Made by a program: the position numbers and the translations under genes. The notes beneath the pieces were generated by a model. That model saw only the letters and a program-made list of their open reading frames with translations, searched no databases and was not told the DNA's origin. A DNA stretch of 20,000 nt from an uncultured virus (IMG/VR IMGVR_UViG_3300025018_000106) (lineage: Duplodnaviria; Heunggongvirae; Uroviricota; Caudoviricetes): the IMG/VR virus record IMGVR_UViG_3300025018_000106; one strand, given 5' to 3'. This document shows positions 5,726 to 15,979 of the stretch, piece by piece. The first letter of the stretch is position 1, and each line of letters starts with the position of its first letter.

Positions 5726-5734
5726 GGAGCGCAT

Positions 5735-5899
5735 ATGACGACAACAGAAATCGTATGTTCTCACTGTGAAGCTGAGTTTTACATCGAAACCGAGTTTGAT
5801 ATTCTGTTCTGCCCGTCCTGCGGAGAATCACTTCCGCAGGGCGAGTGGAACGGGTATCGCGACGAAGAATATGACTATGATCTAGAGGATGACGAATGA
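5735..5899 (+). CDS. small Zn-ribbon protein with acidic tail (54 aa)
   Basis: AAGGAG RBS; MTTTEIVCSHCEAEFYIETEFDILFCPSCGE...DLEDDE. Confidence 0.8.
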   Translation: MTTTEIVCSHCEAEFYIETEFDILFCPSCGESLPQGEWNGYRDEEYDYDLEDDE

Positions 5900-6045
5900 G
5901 CAAACAAGGTAAAATCGTAATCTTGGCTGAAAACTCTTGCGGCGGCACATTCGCCACGGTCAAAGATCGAAAAGACGTTGATCTGTCCAAGATGAAGAAA
6001 CTACCAGAACAAATGCACGGCATGGACGTGTATATCGAAGTCTGA
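5896..6045 (+). CDS. hypothetical protein (49 aa)
   Basis: ATGA overlap, GAGG RBS; MSKQGKIVILAENSCGG... Confidence 0.65.
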   Translation: MSKQGKIVILAENSCGGTFATVKDRKDVDLSKMKKLPEQMHGMDVYIEV

Positions 6046-6076
6046 ATAAATACCCTCCGCAAGGAGGGTATTTTTC
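6045..6076 (+). terminator. GCAA-tetraloop hairpin plus T-tract; also hides the next RBS and overlaps a late-promoter-like AATAAATA
   Basis: AAATACCCTCC-GCAA-GGAGGGTATTT-TTT just before ATG 6078. Confidence 0.75.
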
Positions 6077-6077
6077 T

Positions 6078-6497
6078 ATGTGGTACTATGAAGGTAAAGA
6101 ATTCACCAGTGACATGATTGGTGACAACATCGGTTTCGTCTACATCATCACAAACAAGCAGAACGGCATGAAATATGTCGGCAAGAAATTGTTTCGGTCA
6201 ACTCGAAAGTTACCGCCTCTAAAGGGTCAGAAGCGCAGACGCACCAAGATCGTAGAGTCAGACTGGCAAACTTACTACGGATCATCCGAAGAAACTCAAG
6301 CAATCGTTGAAGAACACGGCGGCGAAATTTTCCATCGTGAAATCTTACATCTGTGTAAGACCAAGGGCGTCATGTCGTATCTGGAACTGGTAGAGCAGGT
6401 CGAACGTCGCGTGCTTCTCCGCGACGACTACTACAACCGTATAATCCAGGTCAAGATACACGCGTCCCATGTGAACTCTTTGCGTGGCGACAATTAG
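6078..6497 (+). CDS. GIY-YIG-family protein of a type common in T4-like myoviruses
   Basis: GFVYIITN..NGMKYVGKK, ESDWQTYYGS, REIL, YYN. Confidence 0.85.
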   Translation: MWYYEGKEFTSDMIGDNIGFVYIITNKQNGMKYVGKKLFRSTRKLPPLKGQKRRRTKIVESDWQTYYGSSEETQAIVEEHGGEIFHREILHLCKTKGVMSYLELVEQVERRVLLRDDYYNRIIQVKIHASHVNSLRGDN

Positions 6498-7034
6498 CGA
6501 AATGCCATCTTCTCATAATAAAGTCAGCGCCTTCTTTGCCACAATGCGGGCAAGTTACGATAGGTCTTTTCTTGCCCGTCCAAGCCTGTCTTTTTCGTCT
6601 CTTGGCGGCCTCTGACTTTTTCTTGTTACAACCGATCACGCGACCTTTGAGTGTCGCAGAAATTTTGGCATCACGTTCGGTGGAATCAAACGATTCCCAG
6701 AATTTTTTGATACTTTCCGACTGTTTTCTTCTGTGTTCTTCTGTGACGATACAAGCGCCGCCATCTCCCATCTCAGGTTCAGATTCGCGAAATTGTCGGA
6801 TTCTACGATGTTCCATAGGTGACTGTAATACAGACCCTTTTCGCGAATCGCGTTTTCGTCTGTGGTCTCTAATAACACCTCGGTCTTTACATCGTAACCG
6901 TGTTTCTGTATGTGGCGGCGCCACAATTTACCAGACCCTCTATAATCATAGGGGTCTTGAACCGTCTTGCCAAGATACTTCAAGCCGGTCTTGTTGTGTG
7001 TTTTCAGATAAAGATAAATAGTCTCGCTGGACAT
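6451..7034 (-). pseudogene. GIY-YIG (Seg-like) homing endonuclease with a 1-nt frameshift near 6778
   Basis: N-part IYLYLKTHNKTGLKYLGKT..YRGSG..NFANL; C-part PEMGDGG...VTCPHCGKEG..RWHF.NC in another frame. One added A gives ANLKPEMGDGG. Confidence 0.82.
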
Positions 7035-7092
7035 AATAACCTCCTCAGGTTGTCTAGAGTTAGTGGGTGTTGGCGCACCGCGACTAACGATC

Positions 7093-7100
7093 TATTTATA
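7093..7100 (-). promoter_or_regulatory. T4-type late promoter TATAAATA
   Basis: Exact consensus upstream of the endonuclease leader. Confidence 0.8.
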
Positions 7101-7215
7101 AGGAGGCATATGATGAATGTTACGATAAGGCGTTACAAGCGCACGAAATGGGTCTCATACCCTGGTCGAAGGTTGAAGAATACGCCAAATATCTCCACAA
7201 TCTTTATGGAGCTGG

Positions 7216-7243
7216 TTGACACCTCGGACGAATCAACTATATT
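7216..7243 (+). promoter_or_regulatory. early promoter, GAATC family
   Basis: TTGACA 7216, GAATC 7230, TATATT 7238. Confidence 0.8.
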
Positions 7244-7273
7244 AGAGTTGTGAGAAACGAAAGAGGTTACATT

Positions 7274-7552
7274 ATGAAAGTCAACGATCTGAATGCTGTC
7301 GTCGCTCTGATTCGCAACATGAACAACGATGATCTGAACACGGTCATCCAGGCAATCAAAGACCAACGCGACTATCTCGCGAAACAGACGGCGGTTACTT
7401 TCCGTCGGGGCGATATGGTCCAGTTTGATCGCGGTCCGCGTCGGGGCGGCCTCGCGACCGGCGAAGTCGTCAAGGTCAACACGAAGTCCGTCGCCGTCAT
7501 GGTCGGCAACGTCAAGTGGCGCGTCGCCCCCGGGCTTCTGAAAAAAGTTTGA
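7274..7552 (+). CDS. hypothetical early protein (possible SH3/KOW-like C-terminus)
   Basis: GAGG RBS; FRRGDMVQF...GEVVKVNTKSVAV...WRV. Confidence 0.8.
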   Translation: MKVNDLNAVVALIRNMNNDDLNTVIQAIKDQRDYLAKQTAVTFRRGDMVQFDRGPRRGGLATGEVVKVNTKSVAVMVGNVKWRVAPGLLKKV

Positions 7553-7573
7553 AAAAAGCGCCGAAAGGCGCTT
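7552..7573. terminator. hairpin AAGCGCC-GAAA-GGCGCTT
   Basis: Perfect 7-bp stem preceded by an A-run. Confidence 0.5.
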
Positions 7574-7599
7574 GCAATCTCTCCCGAATCGCTTATATT
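7572..7599 (+). promoter_or_regulatory. early promoter, GAATC family
   Basis: TTGCAA 7572, GAATC 7586, TATATT 7594, then TGTAAC. Confidence 0.8.
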
Positions 7600-7631
7600 A
7601 GACTTGTAACGAGACAGAAAGAGAGACAAAA

Positions 7632-7889
7632 ATGATCGATGAAATCCTCCAGCTGATCGAAGAATTCAACGAGAGCATCAGCTACTCCGTCGGTCAGAAA
7701 TACATCAAGATCGTCAAAGGCGGTTCGGTCTGGGGTTTTGTCGTCAACACCGACAAAGACAAGAAGTTTCGCAAGGGCGACATTCTCAAGGCCGCTTCGT
7801 GGGCCGCTCCCGCCCGCAACGCCACTCGCGGCAACGTCCTTGACGGCGGCTACAGCATCGCCTGTACTGGCCCCCACTACCTGAAGTAA
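7632..7889 (+). CDS. conserved phage hypothetical protein
   Basis: GQKYIKIV...VWGFV...GDILKAASWAAPARNA.RGN. Confidence 0.85.
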   Translation: MIDEILQLIEEFNESISYSVGQKYIKIVKGGSVWGFVVNTDKDKKFRKGDILKAASWAAPARNATRGNVLDGGYSIACTGPHYLK

Positions 7890-7899
7890 GGAGAAAAAC

Positions 7900-8112
7900 A
7901 TGTTCACCACCATCGTAGCCTGGGGGGTGTTCGTCTTGACAAGTCTGATCTTTCTGATCGCGATGGCAGAACCGCTTCTGAAATCGCAGGCAGAGAAAGA
8001 CCTTGAAGAGCTTCGCGCTCGCATCACAGGTGTCCGACGAACGACTTCTTGGAACCGGGTTCTTGTCCTGTTCCTTTTCTGGTTCGCCGCCGGGTGGTAC
8101 CTCTTCGGTTGA
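7900..8112 (+). CDS. small membrane protein (2 TM)
   Basis: AAGGAG RBS; two hydrophobic segments. Confidence 0.8.
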   Translation: MFTTIVAWGVFVLTSLIFLIAMAEPLLKSQAEKDLEELRARITGVRRTTSWNRVLVLFLFWFAAGWYLFG

Positions 8113-8344
8113 TCCGGCATAACTGAGTGTGTTAGGAGAGAAATAATGAACGCTCGAGACTCGCCCTAAGAGGGTGTAGATAGATAGTTAGATTGAGATT
8201 TGGTTTGGAACCTGGGTAGGTTCGAAAACTGCCCATAGAGTGTAGCAACGACCTGAGCAAGTCAATAAACTGCTCACTAACATCGTTCTGCATGGTAACA
8301 TCGCCTGTGTTAGCATTCAAAACCATGTTAGCGAGGAGAAAAAC

Positions 8345-8446
8345 ATGCTGTTGGTCGCAACAATGTTTGCCATGACGACAACACTCCTGTATAAACAACC
8401 ACAACTGGTTTACCTGGAGGTGAAAGCAAATGATGAGCGAGTTTGA
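8345..8446 (+). CDS. small hypothetical peptide (33 aa)
   Basis: GAGGAG RBS; MLLVATMFAMTTTLLYKQPQLVYLEVKANDERV. Confidence 0.45.
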   Translation: MLLVATMFAMTTTLLYKQPQLVYLEVKANDERV

Positions 8447-8582
8447 ACAGATGGTCATGCGAGACGCCATGGAATGGGCGGCCAAGACCGGCCAGACGTT
8501 TCGCACCGAACAATCGCTTTACGAAGCGTTCTGGGCTGAAAAACTTTCGAACGCCGGCAAACGACCGCTGGTCGCAATCTGA
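8430..8582 (+). CDS. hypothetical protein (50 aa)
   Basis: GGAGG RBS; MMSEFEQMVMRDAMEWAAKTG... Confidence 0.7.
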   Translation: MMSEFEQMVMRDAMEWAAKTGQTFRTEQSLYEAFWAEKLSNAGKRPLVAI

Positions 8583-8595
8583 TAAATAGGAACAT

Positions 8596-8672
8596 GCGCC
8601 CGTAGCTCAACTGGACAGAGCAAGTGACTTCTAATCACTAGGTCGAGGGTTCGAATCCTTCCGGGCGCGCCA
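8596..8672 (+). tRNA. tRNA-Arg(TCT)
   Basis: Canonical cloverleaf, loop CT-TCT-AA, encoded CCA. Confidence 0.97.
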
Positions 8673-8689
8673 TATCATGGAGAAATATC

Positions 8690-8901
8690 ATGGTTGATCT
8701 TGACCAAATCGCAATCGACTTAATCGAAGCAGCACGCGACAACGAAGAAGTAACGCAAGCGCGCAAGCGCGCATTTCTTTGATGGTCCAGAACGATGAAG
8801 GTTTCGTGACGGAACAAGTCTACACCATCCGGTATTACGAGGACCGAGACGGTCGACCGGACTATCAGTGGACCATTTCGTCCAATCCGATCACGCGCTA
8901 A
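8690..8901 (+). pseudogene. 67-aa ORF disrupted by an 8-nt tandem duplication
   Basis: GGAG RBS; CGCAAGCG x2 at 8754-8769; removing one copy gives one continuous ORF. Confidence 0.7.
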
Positions 8902-8902
8902 A

Positions 8903-8988
8903 GCGGGCGTGGCGAAACGGCAGACGCAGGAGGCTTAAACCCTCTGGTCAGAAATGGCGTGCGGGTTCAAATCCCGCCGCCCGCACCA
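8903..8988 (+). tRNA. tRNA-Leu(TAA)
   Basis: Class II cloverleaf, CCA. Confidence 0.95.
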
Positions 8989-9003
8989 AACAAGGAGTAT
9001 ATC

Positions 9004-9141
9004 ATGGGTATCTTGAAAGGCGCCGCGGTGATCTTCATGGGAATGATTATCTTTTCGTTCGCCATCACCGCATGGGACCTTTTCGTGACTGATCCGTGTC
9101 AGTCTTTCAATCGTGGTTACGCCGAAGGATGCGAACAATGA
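9004..9141 (+). CDS. small membrane protein
   Basis: AAGGAG RBS; one TM segment. Confidence 0.7.
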   Translation: MGILKGAAVIFMGMIIFSFAITAWDLFVTDPCQSFNRGYAEGCEQ

Positions 9142-9317
9142 GCAAACGCGAAGATATCATCCGCATGGTCATGGAAGCGCCTGACCACAAGATCGAACAA
9201 CTGTTCCGTGACATGGGCATCGAATTGGACCTGAGTGGTCAGCATCCCGTCGTGGACATTGAAACCCAAACCTCCGAGGACATGATGTTCACACATTTGT
9301 ATGGAGATACACGATGA
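9138..9317 (+). CDS. hypothetical protein
   Basis: ATGA-coupled; MSKREDIIRM... Confidence 0.7.
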   Translation: MSKREDIIRMVMEAPDHKIEQLFRDMGIELDLSGQHPVVDIETQTSEDMMFTHLYGDTR

Positions 9318-9559
9318 ATTTCGACCAAACTCTATGGCTAGGCTTAGACAGCATTCAAGCTCTCTATCTGGCCATACCTTTTGCAATCGTATCAGCACTC
9401 ATTGCCAGATACACAAACAGAAACGCGACGTTTTGGTTTTTGGCTTCTTTCCCCTTTTCGATTCTAGCCTTTGGTTATCTTGTGATAACATGGATGTTCG
9501 GCAAGGCAGCGAAAGACTCTTCTGATCTTGTCAAAATGGCGAAAGGAGAAGAAGTATGA
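9314..9559 (+). CDS. small membrane protein
   Basis: ATGA-coupled, GGAG RBS, two TM segments. Confidence 0.75.
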   Translation: MNFDQTLWLGLDSIQALYLAIPFAIVSALIARYTNRNATFWFLASFPFSILAFGYLVITWMFGKAAKDSSDLVKMAKGEEV

Positions 9560-9735
9560 CGCACGAAACCGCTTTCCTGATTCTTTCTTCTATGTCTGTT
9601 TTGTGGGTTGTTTATGCACTCCATCTGACAGCAAAAAGAAAGGAAAAGTCCTTTCTGGCTTATTTGGTGATCTACTTCGGCGTTCTTTTTCCGCCTCTCT
9701 GGATCGCTTATTTCTACATGAAAAATCGCGCCTGA
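9556..9735 (+). CDS. small membrane protein (59 aa)
   Basis: AGGAG RBS, ATGA-coupled; MTHETAFLILSS...YFYMKNRA. Confidence 0.75.
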   Translation: MTHETAFLILSSMSVLWVVYALHLTAKRKEKSFLAYLVIYFGVLFPPLWIAYFYMKNRA

Positions 9736-9739
9736 TATC

Positions 9740-9831
9740 GGTCCTGTAGCTCAATGGTAGAGCGGTGTCCTTATAAGACATGAGCGCCTGATTAGCGCAC
9801 GATGTAGGTTCGATTCCTACCGGGACTACCA
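9740..9831 (+). tRNA. tRNA-Ile(TAT) with long variable arm
   Basis: GTGTC-CTTATAA-GACAT anticodon arm; V-arm GCGC-CTGATTA-GCGC; A73, CCA. Confidence 0.88.
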
Positions 9832-9833
9832 TT

Positions 9834-9909
9834 GCTCCTGTAGCTCAGCGGTTAGAGCTGCCCGCTCATAACGGGTAGGTCGCAGGTTCGAATCCTGCCG
9901 GGAGCACCA
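9834..9909 (+). tRNA. tRNA with CAT anticodon, probably Ile2 (lysidine type)
   Basis: Canonical cloverleaf; C4:G69 and C5:G68 as in TilS substrates. Ile versus Met is inferred. Confidence 0.85.
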
Positions 9910-9938
9910 AAAAAATTCGAAAAAACTGAAAAAAGTGC

Positions 9939-9967
9939 TTGACGAATCAGACCAAATCATATAAATA
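9939..9967 (+). promoter_or_regulatory. composite sigma70-like and late (TATAAATA) promoter
   Basis: A-tracts, TTGACG 9939, TATAAATA 9960-9967. Confidence 0.7.
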
Positions 9968-10008
9968 TGGTCACATCAAGACACAGACTTTACTAAGGAA
10001 CTAGCCCA

Positions 10009-10128
10009 ATGACAACCCATTATTGCAAAAAGCAGATGCAAACGCTCGCGAACCCCATTCGCGTCACCGCTCTGATTGCGCGTAATGAGGGCTTTGGAAA
10101 TGGACATATGGAGGGCTACATGGGATAA
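10009..10128 (+). CDS. putative attenuator leader peptide (39 aa)
   Basis: AAGGA RBS; MTTHYCKKQMQTLANPIRVTALIARNEGFGNGHMEGYMG; 3' end complementary to the terminator arm. Confidence 0.65.
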   Translation: MTTHYCKKQMQTLANPIRVTALIARNEGFGNGHMEGYMG

Positions 10129-10154
10129 CAAGTGATCCCAGTAACGAGTAGCAC

Positions 10155-10187
10155 AAGGCCCTCCGCTAAAACGGAGGGTCTTTTTTT
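10155..10187 (+). terminator. intrinsic terminator (attenuator)
   Basis: AAGGCCCTCCG-CTAAAA-CGGAGGGTCTT followed by a T7 tract. Confidence 0.88.
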
Positions 10188-10499
10188 ATGGATGACAAAG
10201 AGGCAAAGATACGAGATTTTTTACAAGAACTTGCGAAGGCTTGGCCATACAAACGCATTGTGATACCGAAACATCTTCTGAAAAGATGGGACGAAGAACG
10301 CGGCGACGGTATGGTGACGAAAGAAATGGCCTTGACTGTTGACAAAGACTTCGATATCTCAGATGATGAACAACTCTGGGAGCTGATGTTGAAACTGAGA
10401 GAGTCCACGAAGAATGCAAAACCTCTCCGCTTCAATGATCTGAAGCTGAGAGAGTCCAACCCACCGAAAACCGGTGTGGAAAAGACGAAACTGATATAG
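10188..10499 (+). CDS. hypothetical protein
   Basis: 103-aa ORF whose GGAGG RBS is the terminator 3' arm. Confidence 0.7.
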   Translation: MDDKEAKIRDFLQELAKAWPYKRIVIPKHLLKRWDEERGDGMVTKEMALTVDKDFDISDDEQLWELMLKLRESTKNAKPLRFNDLKLRESNPPKTGVEKTKLI

Positions 10500-10501
10500 A
10501 C

Positions 10502-10575
10502 GGGGCACGTCTATGGGTAGCGGGCGATCCTTGCAAGATTGCTGTCAAAGGGTTCGATTCCCTTGTGTTCCACCA
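10502..10575 (+). tRNA. tRNA-Ala(TGC), reduced D-arm
   Basis: G3·U70, A73, loop CT-TGC-AA, T-arm, CCA. Confidence 0.85.
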
Positions 10576-10580
10576 ACAAC

Positions 10581-10657
10581 GGTGCTGTAGCTCAGTTGGC
10601 CAGAGCGCGCCGCTCATAACGGCGAGGTCGGTGGTTCGATGCCACCCAGCACCACCA
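10581..10657 (+). tRNA. tRNA-Met(CAT), elongator type
   Basis: Canonical cloverleaf, paired 1:72, no 3GC initiator stem. Confidence 0.9.
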
Positions 10658-10676
10658 AAAAAGTGACAGATAGTGG

Positions 10677-10705
10677 TTGACACGCAAAGCGAATCGCACT
10701 ATATG
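10677..10705 (+). promoter_or_regulatory. early promoter, GAATC family
   Basis: TTGACA 10677, GAATC 10691, TATATG 10700, TGTAAC x2. Confidence 0.8.
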
Positions 10706-10814
10706 TAACATGTAACGAAAGAGATTGCGGCGTTGGGAGACTGGCCCGCCTGAGCAGAAACCCCCTGCGAGAAACTAACCAATACGGTTCTCACAAATAG
10801 GGTAAAAAAAGGTC

Positions 10815-10843
10815 TTGACATTGTGAACGAATCACGATAGAAA
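10815..10843 (+). promoter_or_regulatory. early promoter, GAATC family
   Basis: TTGACA 10815, GAATC 10829, TAGAAA 10838. Confidence 0.75.
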
Positions 10844-10849
10844 GATCAA

Positions 10850-10877
10850 GTCTTGAAAGAGACACGCTCTTTGAAAA
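10850..10877 (+). promoter_or_regulatory. rrn-like boxB/boxA antitermination signal
   Basis: GTCTT-GAAA-GAGAC hairpin followed by CGCTCTTTGAAAA. Confidence 0.65.
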
Positions 10878-10913
10878 TTTAGTCTTTGACTTAGGGGAAA
10901 CCCGATGATAGTC

Positions 10914-11048
10914 TGAAAACAGAGACCGAGACGCGAATGTGCGTAAGGTCAAAGTTAGTATCTGTTTTCACATGTTGACATTCGGTGGACGACCAGGCTG
11001 AAAAACCTGGCTGACGAAAACTTTGTGTCAACAGTTGAAAACAGATAC
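10914..11048 (+). ncRNA. structured leader RNA with long inverted repeat
   Basis: GTATCTGTTTTCA/TGAAAACAGATAC (13 bp) plus TGTTGACA/TGTCAACA; no ORF. Confidence 0.5.
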
Positions 11049-11135
11049 GGGGGTGCGCCAGAGTTGGAGAGCTGGGGCGGTCTGTAAAACCGTTGCTGAA
11101 AAGCTGAGTAGGTTCGAATCCCACCACCCCCACCA
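11049..11135 (+). tRNA. tRNA-Tyr(GTA)
   Basis: Class II cloverleaf, CCA. Confidence 0.93.
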
Positions 11136-11146
11136 AATACAGGATC

Positions 11147-11229
11147 GTTGTTCCTACCTAGGCGCTAACGGACCAGAGACGAAATCTCACTACGGTCGCC
11201 GCCCGCCCAAACAAGTATAGGTTAACAAC
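11147..11229 (+). ncRNA. putative structured spacer RNA
   Basis: Nested stems GTTGTT/AACAAC, ACCTA/TAGGT, GGCG/CGCC, GACC/GGTC, GAGA/TCTC. Confidence 0.4.
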
Positions 11230-11237
11230 ACACACTG

Positions 11238-11382
11238 GCGCGGGACGCTGAGTCCGTAAGACGCGAGAATTCATTCCCCGGAACGCACAAGGCGTGCGGC
11301 CTGACTGTTAATCAGTGTGAGGGTGGTTCGATTCCACCTCGGGGAGCCAATACGAGCGCAGGACGACGAGTCCGTAAGACGC
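11238..11382 (+). repeat. 27-nt direct repeat (11238-11264, 11356-11382)
   Basis: GCGCrGGACGnnGAGTCCGTAAGACGC, 24/27 identical. Confidence 0.85.
11275..11349 (+). tRNA. tRNA-Asn(GTT)
   Basis: U1:A72, G73, loop CT-GTT-AA, CCA. Confidence 0.9.
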
Positions 11383-11391
11383 ACGAAATAC

Positions 11392-11490
11392 CGGGGCGTT
11401 GGAAAGCGGTATACGATGATGCACATGTTGGCAGAAAGGGTAGCTCCCGGGCGCATGTGTTGTGGGTTCAAGTCCCGCCGACCCCGACCA
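11392..11490 (+). ncRNA. tRNA-like RNA lacking a canonical anticodon arm
   Basis: CGGGGCG/CG(A)CCCCG-ACCA; T-arm GTGGG-TTCAAGT-CCCGC; long internal helix. Confidence 0.7.
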
Positions 11491-11494
11491 ATTC

Positions 11495-11570
11495 GCTAGT
11501 GACTGTCTAATGGAAAGGCAGGCGGCCGATAACCGTCCACGAGGATGTTCGATTCATCCCACTAGCACCA
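11495..11570 (+). tRNA. tRNA-Ile(GAT) with C33
   Basis: GCTAGTG/CACTAGC, loop CC-GAT-AA, CCA. Confidence 0.85.
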
Positions 11571-11572
11571 AG

Positions 11573-11749
11573 TTTGCGGTAGCTTAACAATCGCGCCTCG
11601 CGAACGCGATAAAGTGACCATGTATATGGCATGGTAGATGGGTGACAGTAGAGGAAAGTGGTCGACCTACACCCACTGTCTTTAGAGACGAAGTGTCAGC
11701 GCACAGAACTTAGAATTCTGAGACACATCGGACTCACCCCGCAAAGCCA
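11573..11749 (+). ncRNA. multi-stem RNA closed by a 7-bp stem plus GCCA
   Basis: TTTGCGG/CCGCAAA-GCCA enclosing at least 6 helices. Confidence 0.55.
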
Positions 11750-11822
11750 ACACGGTACCCCACGGGGTGGGGCTAAGACGCTCGGGGAGTAGTGCCTACC
11801 ACATACGCAACAGAGGAGACCC

Positions 11823-11999
11823 ATGATGTTGACACGTTACCAAAGAGTGATGGTTGGTTTTTGTGAAATCGCAGATGGGCTTCTGGCTGTCTTGACACTC
11901 GGAAGCAAGCGAAGAAACTATGCCTTCCACATGACAGCAAAATACGAATTGCGCAATCTGAAACGATGCGCCAAAGAGAGAAATGCCCGCGCGACGTAA
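11823..11999 (+). CDS. hypothetical protein (58 aa)
   Basis: GAGGAG RBS; MMLTRYQRVMVGFCEIADG...; stop lies inside the next tRNA. Confidence 0.7.
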   Translation: MMLTRYQRVMVGFCEIADGLLAVLTLGSKRRNYAFHMTAKYELRNLKRCAKERNARAT

Positions 12000-12062
12000 T
12001 TGGCATAGCGTACCACCCTTAGAAGGTGGGTTTTGGGGGTTCGAGTCCCTCCGCGGGTACCA
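11985..12062 (+). tRNA. tRNA-Leu(TAG), short variable loop
   Basis: CCACC-CTTAGAA-GGTGG, 5-nt variable loop, CCA. Confidence 0.88.
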
Positions 12063-12079
12063 TATTTCAAACGGAGACG

Positions 12080-12229
12080 ATGATGAAAATCACGATCAAA
12101 CGGGAGGACTTGCCGAAACGGCGTAATCCCGAGTTTCTTGCCGCTCGAAAGCGCAAGGCGGGCGCTCACGAAAAACCTTACAATGAACGTCGAAACAACA
12201 AGGCTGCACTCCGAAAGGAGTGGGCATGA
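12080..12229 (+). CDS. small basic protein (49 aa)
   Basis: GGAG RBS; KRRNPEFLAARKRKAGAHEK. Confidence 0.75.
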   Translation: MMKITIKREDLPKRRNPEFLAARKRKAGAHEKPYNERRNNKAALRKEWA

Positions 12230-12240
12230 ATGGACGGGTA

Positions 12241-12323
12241 GGACGGGTAGACGAAAAGCGGTGTGGACTGCTAGTGGGCTTTTAATCCACGGTCAAGGGG
12301 TTCGACTCCCCACCCGTTCTCCA
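12241..12323 (+). tRNA. tRNA-Lys(TTT), atypical D region
   Basis: GGACGGG/CCCGTTC-TCCA; GTGGG-CTTTTAA-TCCAC; expanded D region. Confidence 0.78.
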
Positions 12324-12333
12324 ATACTTCAAT

Positions 12334-12410
12334 GATACGTCAAGCCCAAAGAGACGGAAGGACGTTGTTAGGATACAAGGCTTGAGGGACTGTTGCAACC
12401 TTGACGTATC
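12334..12410 (+). ncRNA. putative structured spacer RNA
   Basis: Perfect 11-bp GATACGTCAAG/CTTGACGTATC. Confidence 0.4.
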
Positions 12411-12436
12411 TTTCAAGTATTGAGATTAGGCAGACC

Positions 12437-12520
12437 TAGGCGGTAGAGTAGGGTGATCCCTGACACTCCGAAAAATGGGAAACAGGTTCAGGGGCCCGGT
12501 GCAAATCCTCCCGCTGCCTA
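12437..12520 (+). ncRNA. putative structured RNA with T-loop-like motif
   Basis: TAGGCGGT/GCTGCCTA, TCCCTGA/TCAGGGG, GGTGCAAATCC. Confidence 0.4.
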
Positions 12521-12530
12521 TTGAAATCAC

Positions 12531-12605
12531 GCGGCCGTAGCTCAGGGGTAGAGCGGCAGACTGAAAATCTGCGCGTCGGAGGTTCGATTCCTCCCGGTCG
12601 CACCA
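12531..12605 (+). tRNA. tRNA-Phe(GAA)
   Basis: Canonical cloverleaf, CCA. Confidence 0.97.
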
Positions 12606-12611
12606 AAATAT

Positions 12612-12685
12612 TGCCCGGTCGTCTAATGGCAGGATAACAGACTTTGAATCTGGAGACGCTGGTTCGACCCCAGCCCGGGCAACCA
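12612..12685 (+). tRNA. tRNA-Gln(TTG)
   Basis: U1:A72, canonical arms, CCA. Confidence 0.93.
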
Positions 12686-12698
12686 ATAGGAGAGTAAG

Positions 12699-12908
12699 AT
12701 GGCAAAGATCAAGAACGAGGACTTTCCGAGAGACGCACAAGCGATTGTGGATCGGCTTTCGAAGGTCGAAGATTTGAACAAGTCGTCTGCCGCTTACCTA
12801 AAGATCATTCCCACCTTCATCGAAGATGGTGACGGTAGGTTCGCGTTCACTCTTGCGAGTCGCGCAGCTTTCATGCACGAATATTGTGAGTCCCAGAAGT
12901 CTAAATAG
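12699..12908 (+). CDS. hypothetical protein
   Basis: AGGAG RBS. Confidence 0.75.
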   Translation: MAKIKNEDFPRDAQAIVDRLSKVEDLNKSSAAYLKIIPTFIEDGDGRFAFTLASRAAFMHEYCESQKSK

Positions 12909-12932
12909 GGTGTAACAATAAGGAAAACACCC

Positions 12933-13286
12933 ATGACACCGAGACTGAAAAGGAACCTTACCATGATTGGTCTTGTCGCAGGCACCATTGTATCCGTAGC
13001 AGGCGCGTTGGCAGTGTTCGATATCGAACCGCCAAGACCTGTGTTCAAAAGCCAACTTGTTCAAGTCCAGATGCAAGTCCTAGAGTTGGACAGCATTATC
13101 ACTTCACAACAGTTGAACGACCAGAGATTGCGGTTGTATCAGAACGAACGCGAATCGCAACAGTGGTTAACAGAGGAAGGTTTCGTGCCTGACTGGCTTC
13201 TAGAGGAGCGCGTCCTGTTGGAGAGTGAGATTGACGCTCTGAGAAATCGACTTGACGTTATTCGCCAACAGGCGGTTGACAACTAA
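12933..13286 (+). CDS. membrane-anchored coiled-coil protein
   Basis: AAGGA RBS, N-terminal TM, late-like CTAAATA at 12901. Confidence 0.8.
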   Translation: MTPRLKRNLTMIGLVAGTIVSVAGALAVFDIEPPRPVFKSQLVQVQMQVLELDSIITSQQLNDQRLRLYQNERESQQWLTEEGFVPDWLLEERVLLESEIDALRNRLDVIRQQAVDN

Positions 13287-13304
13287 AACGAATCATGATA
13301 CAAA
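13276..13304 (+). promoter_or_regulatory. early promoter, GAATC family
   Basis: TTGACA 13276, GAATC 13290, TACAAA 13299, TGTAAC. Confidence 0.75.
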
Positions 13305-13387
13305 GATCATGTAACAAACGAGGTAACACGATGTTTTACTATGAGGACGACCAAGCCTTCTAAGCTACTACAGCGAAAGGAGGAAAA

Positions 13388-13906
13388 ATGTCCAGAACGC
13401 ACCGTAAACCGCGTTGGTATGTTGAACACACCGACGCATCCTACATAAACCGCGAGTTGGAATACCACACTCGCCGTCCCTATCGTCTTGTCAAGGTTCG
13501 TAAGACCGACGAAGAATTCGATAAAGAAATGGCCGCTGCGATCCGTGAATACGAAGCAGCAGTCAAAAAGAACGGCGGCAGCACGACCTACGTTGAATGG
13601 TCTCGCTGGTGTGAATGCTATGTGACCCGCGAAATTCGTAAACCTTGGGTCAGTCGTCACCGTTACGAGCGTGTCCCTTACTCGGTTGACGAATGTATCG
13701 AAGATGCGAAGAAAGAACGCGCGAAACTGACCCGCGACGGCAACATGTCCGAAAGCGGTCGCCGCAAGTATTTCAAGTATCTCGCAAAGAAAGAAGTGCG
13801 CTCTGAGTGGCGCAACATGAAACAGAAAATTCTCAAAGGCGAGGATTACGATGAATATTGCCCACACGACCGTCTTGGTAAAAAGCACGTCTGGTCTGTG
13901 TGGTGA
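13388..13906 (+). CDS. highly charged hypothetical protein
   Basis: AGGAGG RBS; MSRTHRKPRW... Confidence 0.85.
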   Translation: MSRTHRKPRWYVEHTDASYINRELEYHTRRPYRLVKVRKTDEEFDKEMAAAIREYEAAVKKNGGSTTYVEWSRWCECYVTREIRKPWVSRHRYERVPYSVDECIEDAKKERAKLTRDGNMSESGRRKYFKYLAKKEVRSEWRNMKQKILKGEDYDEYCPHDRLGKKHVWSVW

Positions 13907-13912
13907 GAATAT

Positions 13913-13988
13913 GCCGCTTGAGTGTTGATGGCTAGCACGCTTGGTTGTGGACCAGGAAGATCGGGATCGTAACCCGAGGGCGGTACCA
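13913..13988 (+). tRNA. tRNA-His(GTG), alphaproteobacterial type
   Basis: Loop TT-GTG-GA; G1·U72, A73, no encoded G-1. Confidence 0.88.
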
Positions 13989-13994
13989 AACAAC

Positions 13995-14070
13995 GGACCG
14001 GTAGCTGAGAGGCGTAGCGGCGGGCTCTTACCCCGCGTCAACGTGGGTTCGAATCCCACCCGGTTCACCA
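13995..14070 (+). tRNA. tRNA-Lys(CTT)
   Basis: GCGGG-CTCTTAC-CCCGC, CCA. Confidence 0.92.
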
Positions 14071-14077
14071 AACACAT

Positions 14078-14151
14078 CTGGGTGTGTTGTAGTGGTAACT
14101 TATCCGGCTTGGACCCGGAAGTCGCAGGTTCGATTCCTGCCACCCAGACCA
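14078..14151 (+). tRNA. tRNA-Pro(TGG)
   Basis: C1:G72, A73, loop CT-TGG-AC. Confidence 0.9.
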
Positions 14152-14161
14152 AAATAAGCGG

Positions 14162-14190
14162 CTGACATTCTCTGACGAATCACTTATATA
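14162..14190 (+). promoter_or_regulatory. early promoter, GAATC family
   Basis: CTGACA 14162, GAATC 14177, TATATA 14185, TGTAAC. Confidence 0.75.
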
Positions 14191-14214
14191 GGTGATGTAA
14201 CAAGAGAGGTTCAC

Positions 14215-14535
14215 ATGGAACTCACGAAAGAGAACATCGTCCGCCTGCTTGAGAGTAATGACAAAGCTGTTGGTCGAGCGCTTCTGGTTCTGAAACGAAA
14301 CCAGACGCTCGATGAACAGACTTCAAAGAATACGAAGCACCACAACGGCAAGGGCTTTCGTCCCGCTCATGCGTTCATGGGCACCGAAATGGCGGTGTTT
14401 TTCGAGACGAAAGGTTACCTGTCTCCGAAGCAAGTCGCCTACTGGCGCAAGCGAGACAAGAACGGTAACATGCGGATTGGTATCTACTGGCGACAGTTGA
14501 TCGAAGCCGCGAAAGAGAAACAAACGGTAGGGTGA
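14215..14535 (+). CDS. conserved phage hypothetical protein
   Basis: GAGG RBS; RNQTLDEQ...HNGKGF...LSPKQ...YWRQL. Confidence 0.85.
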   Translation: MELTKENIVRLLESNDKAVGRALLVLKRNQTLDEQTSKNTKHHNGKGFRPAHAFMGTEMAVFFETKGYLSPKQVAYWRKRDKNGNMRIGIYWRQLIEAAKEKQTVG

Positions 14536-14609
14536 CGGAACGGTAACGTGCCGGATTGCAAATCCGAGGCCGCGAAAGCGAGTGGGTTCAATTCCCACCC
14601 CTACCTCCA
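14526..14609 (+). tRNA. tRNA-Cys(GCA) with long variable arm
   Basis: U73, loop TT-GCA-AA, V-arm CGC-GAAA-GCG. Confidence 0.88.
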
Positions 14610-14617
14610 AAGGTGAT

Positions 14618-14932
14618 ATGATGAATTTGCGATGGTATCTTTGGTCCAAGTGGGTCTACAAAGTGAACATGGCGAAAAAGCGCGTTCGATTGGTCATGGG
14701 CGGCGTCAAAAGGTTCCCTCAAGACTACACGCAGCAAGAACTCGCCGCTCTGGTTACACATCATCACGAAAAACATGTTGAAGCAGCAACGAAGCTGATG
14801 GAGACAAGAGACAAGCTGATACAGGCGCAAAAAGAGCTGTCTGTTTACAAACGAGGCAAGAACGACCTTGCAAAAGAAATAATCAAACTCCAGAAGGAGT
14901 TAAAAGAAGCCCAGAACATAAGCTGGGATTGA
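14618..14932 (+). CDS. hypothetical coiled-coil protein
   Basis: AAGGTG RBS; MMNLRWY... Confidence 0.75.
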   Translation: MMNLRWYLWSKWVYKVNMAKKRVRLVMGGVKRFPQDYTQQELAALVTHHHEKHVEAATKLMETRDKLIQAQKELSVYKRGKNDLAKEIIKLQKELKEAQNISWD

Positions 14933-14937
14933 AATAT

Positions 14938-15012
14938 GACTCGGGAACTGTCTGGGACAGGGTGCGTCTGCAAAACGTTATCTTACGGGTTCGATTCCCG
15001 CCCGGGTCTCCA
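14938..15012 (+). tRNA. tRNA-Cys(GCA), atypical D-arm
   Basis: GACTCGG/CCGGGTC-TCCA, loop CT-GCA-AA, D-arm CTGTC-TGG-GACAG. Confidence 0.72.
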
Positions 15013-15022
15013 AAATTACTAT

Positions 15023-15101
15023 GCACCCATGGTCTAGTTGGTCCAGGACGCCGGATTTTCACTCCGGAGGACGCAGGGTTCGAATCCCGCTGGGTGTACC
15101 A
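15023..15101 (+). tRNA. tRNA-Glu(TTC)
   Basis: CCGGA-TTTTCAC-TCCGG, CCA. Confidence 0.92.
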
Positions 15102-15106
15102 ATCAC

Positions 15107-15180
15107 TGTCCCGTAGCTCAAAGGTAGAGCACTCCCCTGATAAGGGAAAGACGCAGGATCGTTACCTGCCGGGACAACCA
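15107..15180 (+). tRNA. tRNA-Ile(GAT)
   Basis: Loop CT-GAT-AA; variant T-loop ATCGTTA; CCA. Confidence 0.88.
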
Positions 15181-15207
15181 ATCAACCTTAGTGAAAAGGA
15201 CTATATC

Positions 15208-15630: not shown

Positions 15631-15641
15631 ATAAGAGACAC

Positions 15642-15716
15642 GCCGCGTTAGTATAATGGCGATTACACCTGTGTGGTATACAGGAGACGAAGGCTCGATT
15701 CCTTCACGCGGCACCA
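15642..15716 (+). tRNA. tRNA-Thr(GGT)
   Basis: GCC start, loop GT-GGT-AT, CCA. Confidence 0.9.
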
Positions 15717-15726
15717 AGATTTACAT

Positions 15727-15809: not shown

Positions 15810-15815
15810 AAAAAT

Positions 15816-15974: not shown

Positions 15975-15979
15975 ATTTC

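What the first reader, a model, noticed from the sequence alone, without database searches (positions are those of the whole stretch)
9939..10190. Leader-peptide transcription attenuator gating the main tRNA array
Seen: promoter, a 39-codon leader ORF (10009-10128), then a strong terminator (10155-10187). TGGAGGGCT (10109-10117, within the last six sense codons) pairs with the terminator 5' arm GGCCCTCCG (9 bp, two G·U), enclosing a TGGGAT/ATCCCA hairpin over the stop codon; a second GAGGGC lies at 10087 and TAGCCC (10002) could compete. The terminator 3' arm is also the next RBS. The leader has no run of one amino acid but uses 17 of 20. Known: this is trp/his attenuator geometry. Inference: a ribosome reaching the stop masks the antiterminator, while stalling from any tRNA shortage permits read-through, making a general tRNA-depletion sensor that turns on phage tRNAs. 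I know of no description of this in phages. Caveat: downstream promoters (10677, 10815) could bypass it for most of the array.
Basis: partly seen in the sequence, partly recalled or inferred. Interest (0 to 1): 0.85.

Follow-up and report, generated by a model that had tools for sequence, protein, structure and literature searches.

The report
Possible translation-sensing terminator in phage
In the tRNA-gene region of an uncultured T4-like aquifer phage, a tiny gene is followed by a strong transcription stop signal that can pair instead with two matching stretches inside that gene, so it may act as a switch, but at most it controls one small unknown gene and two tRNAs, and nothing here shows that it works.

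Summary
The promoter belongs to a family of at least 7 look-alike promoters and carries TATAAATA. The 39-codon ORF has gene-like codon usage. The terminator (11 bp, U7) abuts the ATG of a 103-codon ORF and holds that ORF's Shine-Dalgarno (SD) sequence in its 3' arm.

The 5' arm can pair with two in-ORF sites, A (10087-10096) and B (10109-10117), each about -18 kcal/mol. Two such sites occurred in 1 of 3000 shuffles and in 0 of 1941 native windows.

Not supported:
- "17 of 20 amino acids" is ordinary.
- The leader's codons are not matched to the phage tRNAs.
- Family promoters at 10677, 10815 and 13276 feed the main array independently.

Conservation could not be tested. All copies found are identical, and DNA around 27 distant homologues of the downstream gene could not be fetched.

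Best reading (about 0.4): a ribosome-sensitive antiterminator and SD-unmasking switch for ORF103 and at most tRNA-Ala and tRNA-Met. The main rival (about 0.3) is a plain mini-gene with a leaky terminator.

This scan has noted the same kind of reading before, on other phage DNA: 71 notes in at least 66 genomes, all unchecked leads.

The parts
9939..9967 (+). Promoter: TTGACG (9939-9944), spacer motif CAAATCA (9953-9959), TATAAATA (9960-9967). That octamer is the T4 late-promoter sequence as printed in PMC3014915.
   Evidence: one of 9 matches to TTGAC-N6-12-RAATCR against 0.64 expected, all on the + strand. TATAAATA occurs 3 times against 0.18 expected. Function is inferred.
9996..10000 (+). 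Shine-Dalgarno-like AAGGA, 8 nt before the ATG of the short ORF
   Evidence: comparison with the start regions of the window's other ORFs
10002..10010 (+). Possible protector segment ('1'): UAGCCC and neighbours pair with site B in the full-length fold and while the transcript is still short
   Evidence: probability about 0.67. Weak, long-range and inferred.
10009..10128 (+). 39-codon ORF (MTTHYCKKQMQTLANPIRVTALIARNEGFGNGHMEGYMG), either a leader or a small gene
   Evidence: codon score 0.311 per codon, against 0.410 +/- 0.192 for in-frame gene windows; only 0.2% of 446 off-frame windows score as high; the only protein found is identical and flagged as the window's own (on 9 contigs, longest 185,839 bp).
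10087..10096 (+). Site A: GAGGGCUUUG, a 10-bp complement (1 G-U) of 10154-10163, codons 27-30
   Evidence: duplex -19.9 with 3 extra pairs; helix -15.1
10109..10117 (+). Site B: UGGAGGGCU, a 9-bp complement (2 G-U) of 10157-10165, codons 34-37
   Evidence: (helix -13.9)
10121..10140 (+). Small hairpin UGGGAU/AUCCCA enclosing the stop codon (10126-10128)
   Evidence: -7.5 kcal/mol
10155..10187 (+). Intrinsic terminator: 5' arm 10155-10165, loop 10166-10171, 3' arm 10172-10182, U-run to 10187
   Evidence: -19.1; -19.6. It forms in every full-length fold.
10173..10178 (+). GGAGGG, the Shine-Dalgarno sequence of ORF103, buried in the terminator's 3' arm 9 nt before the ATG
10188..10499 (+). ORF103, the first gene behind the terminator. 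It belongs to a small protein family of unknown function.
   Evidence: codon score 0.334; 27 homologues at E <= 0.001; pLDDT 84.5
10502..10657 (+). tRNA-Ala(UGC) and tRNA-Met(CAU), the only tRNAs that lie between the terminator and the next family promoter
10677..10844 (+). Two further promoters of the same family (10677, 10815), which feed the rest of the array independently of the terminator
   Evidence: repeat D14

Best explanation
A promoter-proximal 39-codon ORF and a strong intrinsic terminator form a translation-sensitive switch. The switch sets how much transcription, and also translation, reaches the next gene, ORF103, and at most tRNA-Ala and tRNA-Met.

Proposed mechanism:
- The terminator's 5' arm (10155-10165) can pair with its 3' arm. 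That stops RNA polymerase at the U-run and buries ORF103's Shine-Dalgarno sequence.
- Or it can pair with one of two SD-like stretches in the last third of the short ORF, A (10087-10096) or B (10109-10117). That would prevent the terminator and free the SD.
- Because A and B are coding sequence, ribosome position decides whether they are available.
- With no ribosome, or a lagging one (P-site at codons 1-29), B captures the 5' arm before the 3' arm is made. Read-through follows.
- A ribosome in the last ten codons or at the stop covers B, and covers or sterically hinders A. The terminator forms.

Output would therefore rise when translation of the short ORF is slow. No particular amino acid or tRNA is sensed.

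Shown: the sequence features, the energies, the improbability of the complementarity, and coding-like codon usage. Inferred: promoter activity, translation of the ORF, termination, and every step of the switching.
For: - Anatomy.
- Before the 3' arm exists, the 5' arm pairs with B at p = 0.95, both without a ribosome and with the P-site at codons 1-29. With the P-site at codons 30-33 both sites are masked or nearly so. At codons 34-39 B is masked.
- Energies on 10078-10187: terminator conformer -27.1, B -22.0, A -22.6. Helices alone: -19.6, -13.9 and -15.1.
- Two sites of about -18 kcal/mol: 0.0003 of 3000 dinucleotide shuffles, 0.002 of 3000 synonymous resamplings, 0 of 1941 native windows.
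- On the + strand of the whole 20 kb, 14-mers at or below -18 against this arm occur only at A, at B, at the 3' arm itself and at 15942-15944.
- Control: a second SD-in-stem hairpin at 6048 has no upstream complement. Its best site is -6.7, and 69% of 1000 shuffles do as well.
- The short ORF has gene-like codon usage and an SD.
- ORF103 is a real conserved gene. I saw no promoter between the terminator and its ATG (read).
- ORF103's SD sits in a -19 kcal/mol stem. Published T4 work reports a 100-fold loss of lysozyme synthesis from such masking (PMC3014915, passage).
- While the transcript grows, B first pairs with 10004-10010 (p about 0.67), a possible protector like segment 1 of trp.
Against: - No diverged relative exists in anything I could reach, so there is no conservation or covariation evidence at all.
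- At equilibrium the terminator wins at every modelled ribosome position, p about 1.0.
- The estimated refolding barriers are low: B to terminator 7.5 kcal/mol, A to terminator 3.5. A pre-formed antiterminator might simply be displaced.
- Site A lies outside the footprint of a ribosome at the stop codon, so the logic is not clean.
- The protector pairing is weak and loses to B:5'-arm at equilibrium.
- A and B share GAGGGCU and encode a repeated (N/M)EG(F/Y). They may be a local duplication or a peptide repeat, in which case only the one-site probability applies (0.016, or 0.156 with the peptide held fixed).
- Gene-like codon usage fits an ordinary small protein gene equally well.
- There is no run of regulatory codons.
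- No Rfam family reaches its threshold.
Confidence: 0.4

Rival explanations
1. An ordinary mini-gene. The promoter, a real 39-residue protein gene and its own strong terminator form a self-contained unit. The terminator also ends the roughly 3-kb unit that starts at the promoter at 7216. ORF103 and the two tRNAs are made from constitutive leak-through or from the promoter-like site at 10339. The A and B complementarity is a by-product of a repeated EG motif or of a small duplication.
For: - Codon usage of the short ORF is like the phage's genes.
- Gene callers listed it as a protein on 9 contigs.
- A and B share GAGGGCU and encode (N/M)EG(F/Y).
- With the peptide held fixed, one complementary site is not unusual (0.156).
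- The terminator wins in all equilibrium folds.
- The array has many promoters of its own.
- A promoter-like site at 10339-10367 scores 10 of 12.
Against: - Two sites as strong as these are rare even with the peptide held fixed (0.002), and absent from 1941 native windows.
- This model leaves the conserved ORF103 behind a strong terminator with its SD in a -19 kcal/mol stem, and with no evident way to be expressed.
- The control hairpin at 6048 shows that such complements are not a general property of this phage's SD hairpins.
Confidence: 0.3
2. T4-style translational masking only. The hairpin exists mainly to keep ORF103 untranslated on long early or middle transcripts, as described for T4 genes e, soc, 49, I-TevI and segB. 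Expression would come from transcripts or processed RNAs that lack the 5' arm. Termination would be secondary.
For: - The phage looks T4-like. Its ribonucleotide reductase is 69.7% identical to that of Rhizobium phage RHph_I1_18, whose record lists UvsX-like, family-B polymerase and Seg-like genes.
- TATAAATA is enriched in the window.
- A textbook-like case lies at 6045-6080: AATAAATA sits at the foot of a hairpin that holds the SD of a SegE-like gene.
- The T4 precedent is described in PMC2988022 and PMC3014915 (passages read).
Against: - No TATAAATA-like site (up to 1 mismatch) lies where a transcript could start inside the 10155 hairpin.
- The hairpin has a full U7 tract, so it should terminate.
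- The model does not explain sites A and B.
Confidence: 0.12
3. One reading: a general tRNA-depletion sensor in which a stall at any codon turns on the phage's main tRNA array.
For: - The same in-silico geometry as in the best explanation.
- The leader lacks Asp, Ser and Trp, which are three of the four amino acids (Gly, Asp, Ser, Trp) for which I found no tRNA in the window. Only 1.5% of 2858 39-residue windows have all their missing amino acids within that set.
- This scan holds 71 similar notes from at least 66 other phage genomes. They are leads only.
Against: - The main array has its own family promoters at 10677, 10815 and 13276.
- Only two tRNAs lie in the gated stretch.
- Using 17 of 20 amino acids is ordinary (39.5% of windows).
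- The window's tRNAs read 28 of 39 codons, against a mean of 64% for gene windows, and 19% of windows do as well or better.
- Five Gly codons have no phage tRNA in the window.
- The tRNA set is incomplete, because the window ends at 20000 and several tRNA-like elements are unassigned. The Asp/Ser/Trp coincidence is therefore post hoc.
- In the model, a stall with the P-site at codons 30-33 masks both sites and favours termination.
Confidence: 0.08
4. A stand-alone small RNA of about 215 nt, running from the promoter to the terminator with its U7 tail, or a dual-function RNA. T4 likewise makes small RNAs C and D of unknown role from its tRNA region.
For: - Promoter plus strong terminator about 215 nt apart.
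- Fold z-score -2.2.
- The T4 precedent is stated in PMC3014915 (passage).
Against: - Coding-like codon usage and an SD.
- No Rfam match.
- The z-score is modest.
Confidence: 0.05
5. A factor-dependent switch. A phage or host RNA-binding factor, or a 30S subunit bound at the SD-like sites, recognises the repeated (A)UGGAGGGCU / AUGG motifs and decides between the two pairings.
For: - There are three copies of GAGGG followed 4-9 nt later by AUGG, at A, at B and at the true start of ORF103.
- I count six GGA triplets between 10096 and 10192.
- Both points are read. No statistic was run on them.
Against: No candidate factor is known, there is no test of it here, and the host is unknown.
Confidence: 0.05

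Closest known systems
Leader-peptide transcription attenuators of enterobacterial amino-acid operons (trp, his, pheA, thr, leu, ilv). Mechanism recalled from textbooks; PMC3082878 on pheL was seen only as an abstract in a search listing.
   Same: A promoter-proximal short ORF, an intrinsic terminator before the regulated gene, an antiterminator that shares the terminator's 5' arm and lies where the leader ribosome can cover it, and a terminator more stable than the antiterminator.
   Different: There is no run of regulatory codons. There are two redundant antiterminator segments. The protector hairpin is weak at best. The terminator's 3' arm also holds the next gene's SD. The element lies in a phage, in front of an orphan gene and two tRNAs. 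It has no sequence relationship to these families: Phe_leader scores 22.2 bits against a gathering score of 55.
Ribosome-mediated attenuation that senses slowed translation in general, for example B. subtilis bmrCD (PMC4191407), streptococcal msrD (bioRxiv 10.1101/2021.11.29.470318) and the E. coli topAI uORF (PMC12121999). All three were seen only as titles and abstract starts.
   Same: A short ORF without an amino-acid-specific codon run whose ribosome occupancy decides between terminator and read-through. Output rises when translation is impaired.
   Different: Those systems answer to antibiotics and control resistance or toxin genes in bacteria. Here the inducing condition is unknown and the host is a phage genome.
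T4-type translational masking: SD sequestered in a hairpin on long transcripts, relieved by a late promoter inside the hairpin (genes e, soc, 49, I-TevI, segB, Aeh1 mobE). Passages of PMC2988022 and PMC3014915 were read.
   Same: The SD of the downstream gene is paired in a stable stem in a T4-like phage. The same window holds a close copy of the T4 arrangement at 6045-6080.
   Different: The 10155 hairpin has a full U-tract and no late-promoter-like site inside or at its foot. Relief would have to come from the upstream competitor segments.
pyrBI-type coupling attenuators (recalled, not checked in a paper)
   Same: The outcome depends on how closely the leader ribosome follows RNA polymerase, not on any one amino acid. 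The leader is of similar length (about 40 codons).
   Different: In pyrBI a close ribosome prevents the terminator hairpin. Here a close ribosome would prevent the antiterminator.

Membership tests
Leader-peptide (ribosome-mediated) transcription attenuator | Short ORF with a start codon and SD just behind a promoter | tested here: met
   ORF 10009-10128, AAGGA 8 nt upstream, about 35 nt behind the predicted transcript start. The promoter is one of a 9-member motif family.
Leader-peptide (ribosome-mediated) transcription attenuator | Intrinsic terminator between the leader ORF and the regulated gene | tested here: met
   11-bp stem with 7 G-C pairs and a U7 run, -19.1 kcal/mol. It ends at 10187, and the ATG of ORF103 is at 10188.
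Leader-peptide (ribosome-mediated) transcription attenuator | A mutually exclusive antiterminator that uses the terminator's 5' arm, beyond chance | tested here: met
   Sites A and B. 0.0003 of 3000 shuffles, 0.002 of 3000 synonymous resamplings, 0 of 1941 native windows. In silico only.
Leader-peptide (ribosome-mediated) transcription attenuator | The antiterminator strand is covered by a ribosome that finishes the leader ORF | tested here: inconclusive
   B is inside the footprint of a ribosome at codons 30-39. A is outside it at codons 34-39 and could pair only across the ribosome.
Leader-peptide (ribosome-mediated) transcription attenuator | A protector (1:2) pairing that gives termination when the leader is not translated | tested here: inconclusive
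   B pairs with 10004-10010 at p about 0.67 while the transcript is short and in the full-length fold. It loses to B:5'-arm at equilibrium once the 5' arm is out.
Leader-peptide (ribosome-mediated) transcription attenuator | Read-through depends on translation of the leader | not testable with these tools
   Needs reporter, in vitro transcription or Term-seq experiments.
Leader-peptide (ribosome-mediated) transcription attenuator | ORF position and pairings conserved, with compensatory changes, in relatives | not testable with these tools
   Only identical copies were found: L004, and contigs of runs X4 and X13. DNA around ORF103 homologues could not be fetched.
Amino-acid-specific attenuators (trp/his type) | A run or cluster of codons for the sensed amino acid in the leader | tested here: not met
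   There is no run. The most frequent residue is Gly (5), then Met and Thr (4 each).
Rfam Phe_leader (RF01859) and other curated leader families | Score at or above the family's gathering threshold | tested here: not met
   Phe_leader 22.2 bits against 55 (E = 0.13). PyrR 17.3 against 54. Nothing at this place in the whole-window scan.
Codon-matched leader in front of a phage tRNA array (a kind noted elsewhere in this scan, unpublished) | Leader enriched in codons read by the tRNAs it controls | tested here: not met
   28 of 39 codons are read by the window's tRNAs, against a mean of 64% in gene windows; 19% of 2858 windows do as well or better. A set-level coincidence (no Asp, Ser or Trp) holds in 1.5% of windows and is post hoc.
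Codon-matched leader in front of a phage tRNA array (a kind noted elsewhere in this scan, unpublished) | The terminator directly precedes the tRNA array, with no bypassing promoter | tested here: not met
   A 103-codon ORF comes first. Only two tRNAs lie before the next family promoters at 10677 and 10815.
T4-type SD-masking hairpin relieved by an internal late promoter | SD of the gene paired in a stable stem | tested here: met
   GGAGGG 10173-10178 lies in the 3' arm.
T4-type SD-masking hairpin relieved by an internal late promoter | A late promoter placed so that transcripts lack the 5' arm | tested here: not met
   No TATAAATA match with up to 1 mismatch lies between 9968 and 12899. The feature is met at the other hairpin, AATAAATA 6045-6052.
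Stand-alone small RNA gene | Promoter and terminator bracket a non-coding transcript | tested here: inconclusive
   Promoter and terminator bracket about 215 nt, but the ORF inside has coding-like codon usage.

The most novel reading that the evidence does not exclude
The element is a phage-encoded sensor of translation capacity. When ribosomes lag on a 39-codon test gene, because of host shut-off, a ribosome- or tRNA-targeting defence, or late-infection overload, an in-ORF antiterminator captures the terminator arm. That both lets RNA polymerase through and unmasks the Shine-Dalgarno sequence of a conserved orphan gene (the ORF103 family), followed by tRNA-Ala and tRNA-Met. It would be one instance of a wider, unpublished class of leader-ORF switches in the tRNA regions of large phages. 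This scan has flagged that class on at least 66 other genomes.
Probability: 0.15. Interest if true: 0.8.

Novelty: new variant of a known kind. Interest (0 to 1): 0.42.

Why it matters
Phage tRNA genes are now seen as countermeasures against host tRNA-cleaving defences (PMC10264068 and PMC11555353, seen as abstract starts). How their expression is controlled is barely known.

A leader-ORF switch inside a phage tRNA region would show that phages monitor the state of translation and respond to it. It would also extend ribosome-mediated attenuation to viruses. Four full-text searches found no paper describing that.

In this window the claim is narrower. The switch, if real, governs an orphan but conserved small gene and two tRNAs, not the whole array. 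The dual design is an economical device worth testing: one hairpin acts both as terminator and as SD mask, and in-ORF SD-like competitors relieve it.

If the element is not a switch, the result still maps the transcription signals of an uncultured T4-like aquifer phage: a promoter family, TATAAATA sites and SD-masking hairpins.

Tried and rejected
- **Relatives by DNA.** Megablast and blastn against 50,697 phage records found only tRNA pieces (2 records, 7% of the query) or nothing. An exact 24-mer of the terminator found nothing in viral contigs.
- **Relatives by protein.** ORF103 by tblastn in phages: none. In viral contigs: none. Among 5.8 billion proteins: one 98% variant, P0001, whose contig I could not fetch. 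The leader peptide: only an identical protein flagged as the window's own.
- **Metagenome contigs.** L004 and L005 are the same phage. L004 is identical through the whole leader.
- **G001**, the nearest held record, covers only window 1-8765.
- **Reads.** The DNA runs hold identical sequence: X4 over 9995-10431 and X13 over 9982-10367, 0 differences each. So there is no natural variation to use.
- **RNA run X22.** It gave exact contigs only at 9349-9499 and 10734-10903, and none over the leader. That is neither evidence for nor against expression.
- **Neighbour-gene route.** The 172-aa ORF had no relatives. The 106-aa ORF led to L006, a different AT-rich phage with no leader homologue by blastn or tblastx. 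RHph_I1_18 has only 5 tRNAs and no homologue either.
- **Motif hunt.** GAGGGC-N30-60-GCCCTCC-N4-10-GGAGGG in viral contigs gave 116 loci. Of the 132 match rows screened, 3 had a T-run after the hairpin and none resembled this element. Several loci are repeat arrays.
- **DNA context of the ORF103 family.** Alignment A2 in viral contigs found none. A3 in genome contigs gave one spurious hit, L123, in the wrong frame of a bacterial gene. Family members P0017 and P0004 by tblastn in phages: none. A degenerate WPFKR..P.HL pattern gave L124 (no family match) and L125 (a tyrosine integrase gene by my reading; both spurious). P0032 in viral contigs: none.
- **Function of ORF103.** No Pfam or PHROG family. 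Atlas scores at or below 0.83. Foldseek against the PDB: best E = 0.85. VIA-align wide: best Z = 2.8. Function remains unknown.
- **Rfam.** Nothing at threshold.
- **T-box or riboswitch reading.** I looked for a recalled T-box motif by eye and saw none. No such family matched in Rfam.
Full report
**What the window is.** The 20-kb window comes from an uncultured phage.
- Near-identical DNA occurs in runs labelled aquifer or groundwater metagenome.
- The leader's own protein record sits on contigs of up to 185,839 bp.
- The ribonucleotide reductase is 69.7% identical to that of Rhizobium phage RHph_I1_18. That phage's record lists UvsX-like, family-B polymerase and Seg-like homing endonuclease genes. 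The phage is therefore probably a distant T4-like myovirus.
- From 8596 to 19727, ARAGORN tRNA genes, all on the + strand, interspersed with small ORFs.

- The promoter, TTGACG at 9939, was missed by the generic scan because its best -10 (TATAAA) follows a 15-nt spacer.
- It belongs to a clear family. TTGAC-N6-12-RAATCR occurs 9 times against 0.64 expected, always on the + strand. Seven of these align as TTGACA-N7-8-CGAATCA-N2-3-TAnAnn: 7216, 9939, 10677, 10815, 13276, 16763, 19975.
- Its -10 region is also a perfect TATAAATA, the T4 late-promoter sequence (PMC3014915, passage). That octamer occurs 3 times against 0.18 expected. The other two copies lie 19 and 59 nt before the starts of two minus-strand ORFs that look like GIY-YIG endonucleases by their sequence (my reading; not scanned against a family library).
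- The 39-codon ORF (10009-10128) has AAGGA 8 nt before its ATG. Its codon score is 0.311 per codon, against 0.410 +/- 0.192 for 223 in-frame gene windows. Only 0.2% of 446 off-frame windows score as high.
- The terminator (10155-10187: 11 pairs, 7 G-C, U7, -19.1 kcal/mol) heads the terminator-like list for 8000-20000. The count of such sites there (15) is no higher than in shuffles (14.4).
- The terminator's U-run ends at 10187 and the ATG of a 103-codon ORF is at 10188. That ORF's GGAGGG lies in the 3' arm.

**The alternative pairing is real and improbable by chance.**
- With the 3' arm left out, the minimum-energy fold pairs the 5' arm with GAGGGCUUUG at 10087-10096 (site A, 10 bp).
- Energies on 10078-10187: terminator conformer -27.1, B -22.0, A -22.6 kcal/mol. 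Helices alone: -19.6, -13.9 and -15.1.
- Each site gives a duplex of about -18 kcal/mol with the 13-nt arm.
- Two such sites occur in 0.0003 of 3000 dinucleotide shuffles of the upstream 177 nt, and in 0.002 of 3000 resamplings that keep the peptide and redraw synonymous codons. One site alone occurs in 0.016 and 0.156.
- In 1941 native 177-nt windows of this DNA (both strands, the element excluded), 2.2% have one site at or below -18 and none has two. On the + strand of the 20 kb the only such sites are A, B, the 3' arm itself and one at 15942.
- Control: a second hairpin that also holds an SD (6048-6073, -17.5 kcal/mol) has no upstream complement. Its best site is -6.7, and 69% of 1000 shuffles do as well.
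- Caveat: A and B share GAGGGCU and encode (N/M)EG(F/Y). If they arose by a small duplication or reflect a peptide repeat, only the one-site probability applies.

**How a ribosome would act on it.** I modelled a 28-nt footprint at each P-site codon.
- Before the 3' arm is transcribed, the 5' arm pairs with B at p = 0.95, both without a ribosome and with the ribosome at codons 1-29.
- At codons 30-33, both sites are masked or nearly so.
- At codons 34-39, which includes a ribosome waiting at the stop codon, B is masked. A is formally free (p = 0.69-0.97), but it would have to pair across the ribosome.
- With the full transcript the terminator wins everywhere (p about 1).
- Estimated refolding barriers are low: 7.5 kcal/mol from B and 3.5 from A.
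- As the naked transcript grows, B first pairs with 10004-10010 next to the leader's start codon (p about 0.67) and A pairs with 10053-10072. B switches to the 5' arm once that arm is exposed (10164-10176). The terminator takes over from 10178.

The protector is weak, however, and site A blurs the 'ribosome at the stop' state. None of this is shown experimentally.

**What the switch could control.**
- ORF103 is a genuine gene. Its codon score is 0.334.
- It has 27 distant homologues at E <= 0.001, the best 60% identical, with conserved WPFKR, P-HL, FTV-K and NPP-TG motifs.
- Its model is confident over residues 1-80 (mean pLDDT 84.5).
- No Pfam, PHROG, Atlas or PDB match explains it.
- I saw no promoter between the terminator and its ATG. 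Its SD is in a -19 kcal/mol stem. For T4 lysozyme, such masking cuts synthesis 100-fold (PMC3014915).
- A plain-terminator reading therefore leaves this conserved gene without an evident route to expression. The competitor segments provide one.
- Behind ORF103 lie only tRNA-Ala and tRNA-Met. Family promoters follow at 10677 and 10815, later ones at 13276 and 16763, and a generic promoter-like site lies at 10339 inside ORF103.
- The element therefore does not gate the main array.

**The tRNA-sensor idea.**
- Using 17 of 20 amino acids is ordinary. 39.5% of 2858 39-residue windows of the phage's own proteins use 17 or more.
- The window's tRNAs (the 24 plus a likely tRNA-Asn from the relaxed run) read 28 of the 39 codons. 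Gene windows average 64%, and 19% of them do as well or better.
- One coincidence remains. The leader lacks Asp, Ser and Trp, three of the four amino acids (with Gly) for which I found no tRNA in the window. Only 1.5% of windows have all their missing residues within that set.
- That coincidence is post hoc. The tRNA set is incomplete, because the window ends at 20000 and several tRNA-like elements are unassigned. The leader also has five Gly codons.

**Conservation could not be tested.**
- Every other copy I could reach is the same phage and identical through the leader: L004 and contigs of runs X4 and X13.
- No leader-like sequence exists in the phage collection, in IMG/VR or in the two most related loci.
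- The ORF103 family would give the needed diverged contexts, but all attempts to fetch DNA around its members failed.
- Rfam has nothing at threshold. The best sub-threshold match is Phe_leader, 22.2 bits against 55, E = 0.13.

**Comparison with known systems.**
- It works like a leader-peptide attenuator, but without regulatory codons. In logic it is closer to the ribosome-mediated attenuators that answer to slowed translation in general (bmrCD, msrD, topAI uORF; listing only).
- It also resembles T4's SD-masking hairpins (PMC2988022 and PMC3014915), yet it lacks the internal late promoter that defines those.
- The same window holds a close copy of that T4 device at 6045-6080, in front of a SegE-like gene.
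- Four full-text searches found no paper describing a leader-ORF attenuator in a phage tRNA region. The library lacks most subscription journals.
- This scan has recorded the same kind of reading on other phages: 71 notes in at least 66 genomes. I treated them as leads. They prompted the codon-matching tests, which were negative here.

**Verdict.**
A translation-sensitive antiterminator and SD-unmasking switch is the best single reading (about 0.4).
- Its reach is ORF103 plus two tRNAs, not the array. It is not shown to sense tRNA supply.
- A plain mini-gene with a leaky terminator remains a strong rival (about 0.3).

Noticed in passing
window 6045-6080: AATAAATA (one mismatch from TATAAATA) sits at the foot of an 11-bp hairpin, AAATACCCTCC-GCAA-GGAGGGTATTT (-17.5 kcal/mol). 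The 3' arm holds the SD of a SegE-like GIY-YIG endonuclease gene (6078-6497, PF19835, E = 1.9e-37). This matches the arrangement described for T4 I-TevI and segB, in which late transcripts start inside the hairpin and free the SD.
   Followed up: partly
window 1354-1361 (-), 7093-7100 (-), 9960-9967 (+): TATAAATA occurs 3 times against 0.18 expected. The two minus-strand copies lie 19 and 59 nt before the starts of two minus-strand ORFs (730-1335, 6636-7034) that look like GIY-YIG endonucleases by their sequence (not scanned against a family library). With one mismatch there are 16 matches against 6.7 expected, several at gene or tRNA boundaries (8581, 15626, 18027).
   Followed up: partly
window 7216, 9939, 10677, 10815, 13276, 16763, 19975 (+): A promoter family, TTGACA-N7-8-CGAATCA-N2-3-TAnAnn, often preceded by an A-run and followed by a GTAAC...AGAG leader. 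The motif occurs 9 times against 0.64 expected, all on the + strand. The conserved spacer element may be a site for a phage factor.
   Followed up: partly
window 11275-11349, 14938-15012, 12237-12323, 11391-11490, 15727-15808, 15903-15973: Extra tRNA-like elements with T-arm and ACCA ends that ARAGORN's default run does not call: a likely tRNA-Asn(GUU), a second tRNA-Cys(GCA) (Rfam tRNA, 30.4 bits), one with a CUUUUAA loop (possibly Lys-UUU), and three with aberrant D-arms. They may be degenerate or unusual tRNAs.
   Followed up: partly
window 9740-9831: tRNA-Ile(UAU) is 92 nt long and appears to carry a long extra arm after the anticodon stem, which is unusual for an Ile tRNA.
   Followed up: no
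window 10700-11048: About 350 nt without an ORF of 25 codons or more on the + strand, behind two tandem family promoters and before tRNA-Tyr. A metatranscriptome run holds an exact 170-nt contig at 10734-10903 (depth 4.1; DNA carry-over cannot be excluded). Possibly a non-coding RNA or a long tRNA leader.
   Followed up: no
window 8754-8761; L004 near its position 1141: The window carries a tandem CGCAAGCG that a near-identical metagenome contig lacks (an 8-nt indel), inside the small GC hairpin GCGCGCAAGCGCGC and a short ORF. This is strain-level variation at a repeat.
   Followed up: no
window 10188-10499: ORF103 belongs to a small, unnamed protein family: 27 representatives at E <= 0.001, about 90-118 aa apart from one 2248-aa protein, with WPFKR...P-HL...FTV-K...NPP-TG motifs. 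Its alpha/beta model is confident (pLDDT 84.5) and has no PDB match (best Foldseek E = 0.85; best VIA Z = 2.8).
   Followed up: yes
window 10085-10192: Three copies of GAGGG followed 4-9 nt later by ATGG (site A with ATG 10100, site B with ATG 10120, and the true start at 10188), and six GGA triplets in about 100 nt. They could be decoy or standby ribosome sites or a protein-binding repeat. No statistic was run.
   Followed up: no
window 16482-18031: Directly behind the main array lie an S4-domain protein resembling the C-terminus of tyrosyl-tRNA synthetase (PF01479, E = 3.4e-5), a kinase-like ORF (phrog_15752, E = 5.6e-10) and a NinI-like metallophosphatase (phrog_246, E = 2.7e-42). This may be an RNA- or translation-related module.
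   Followed up: no
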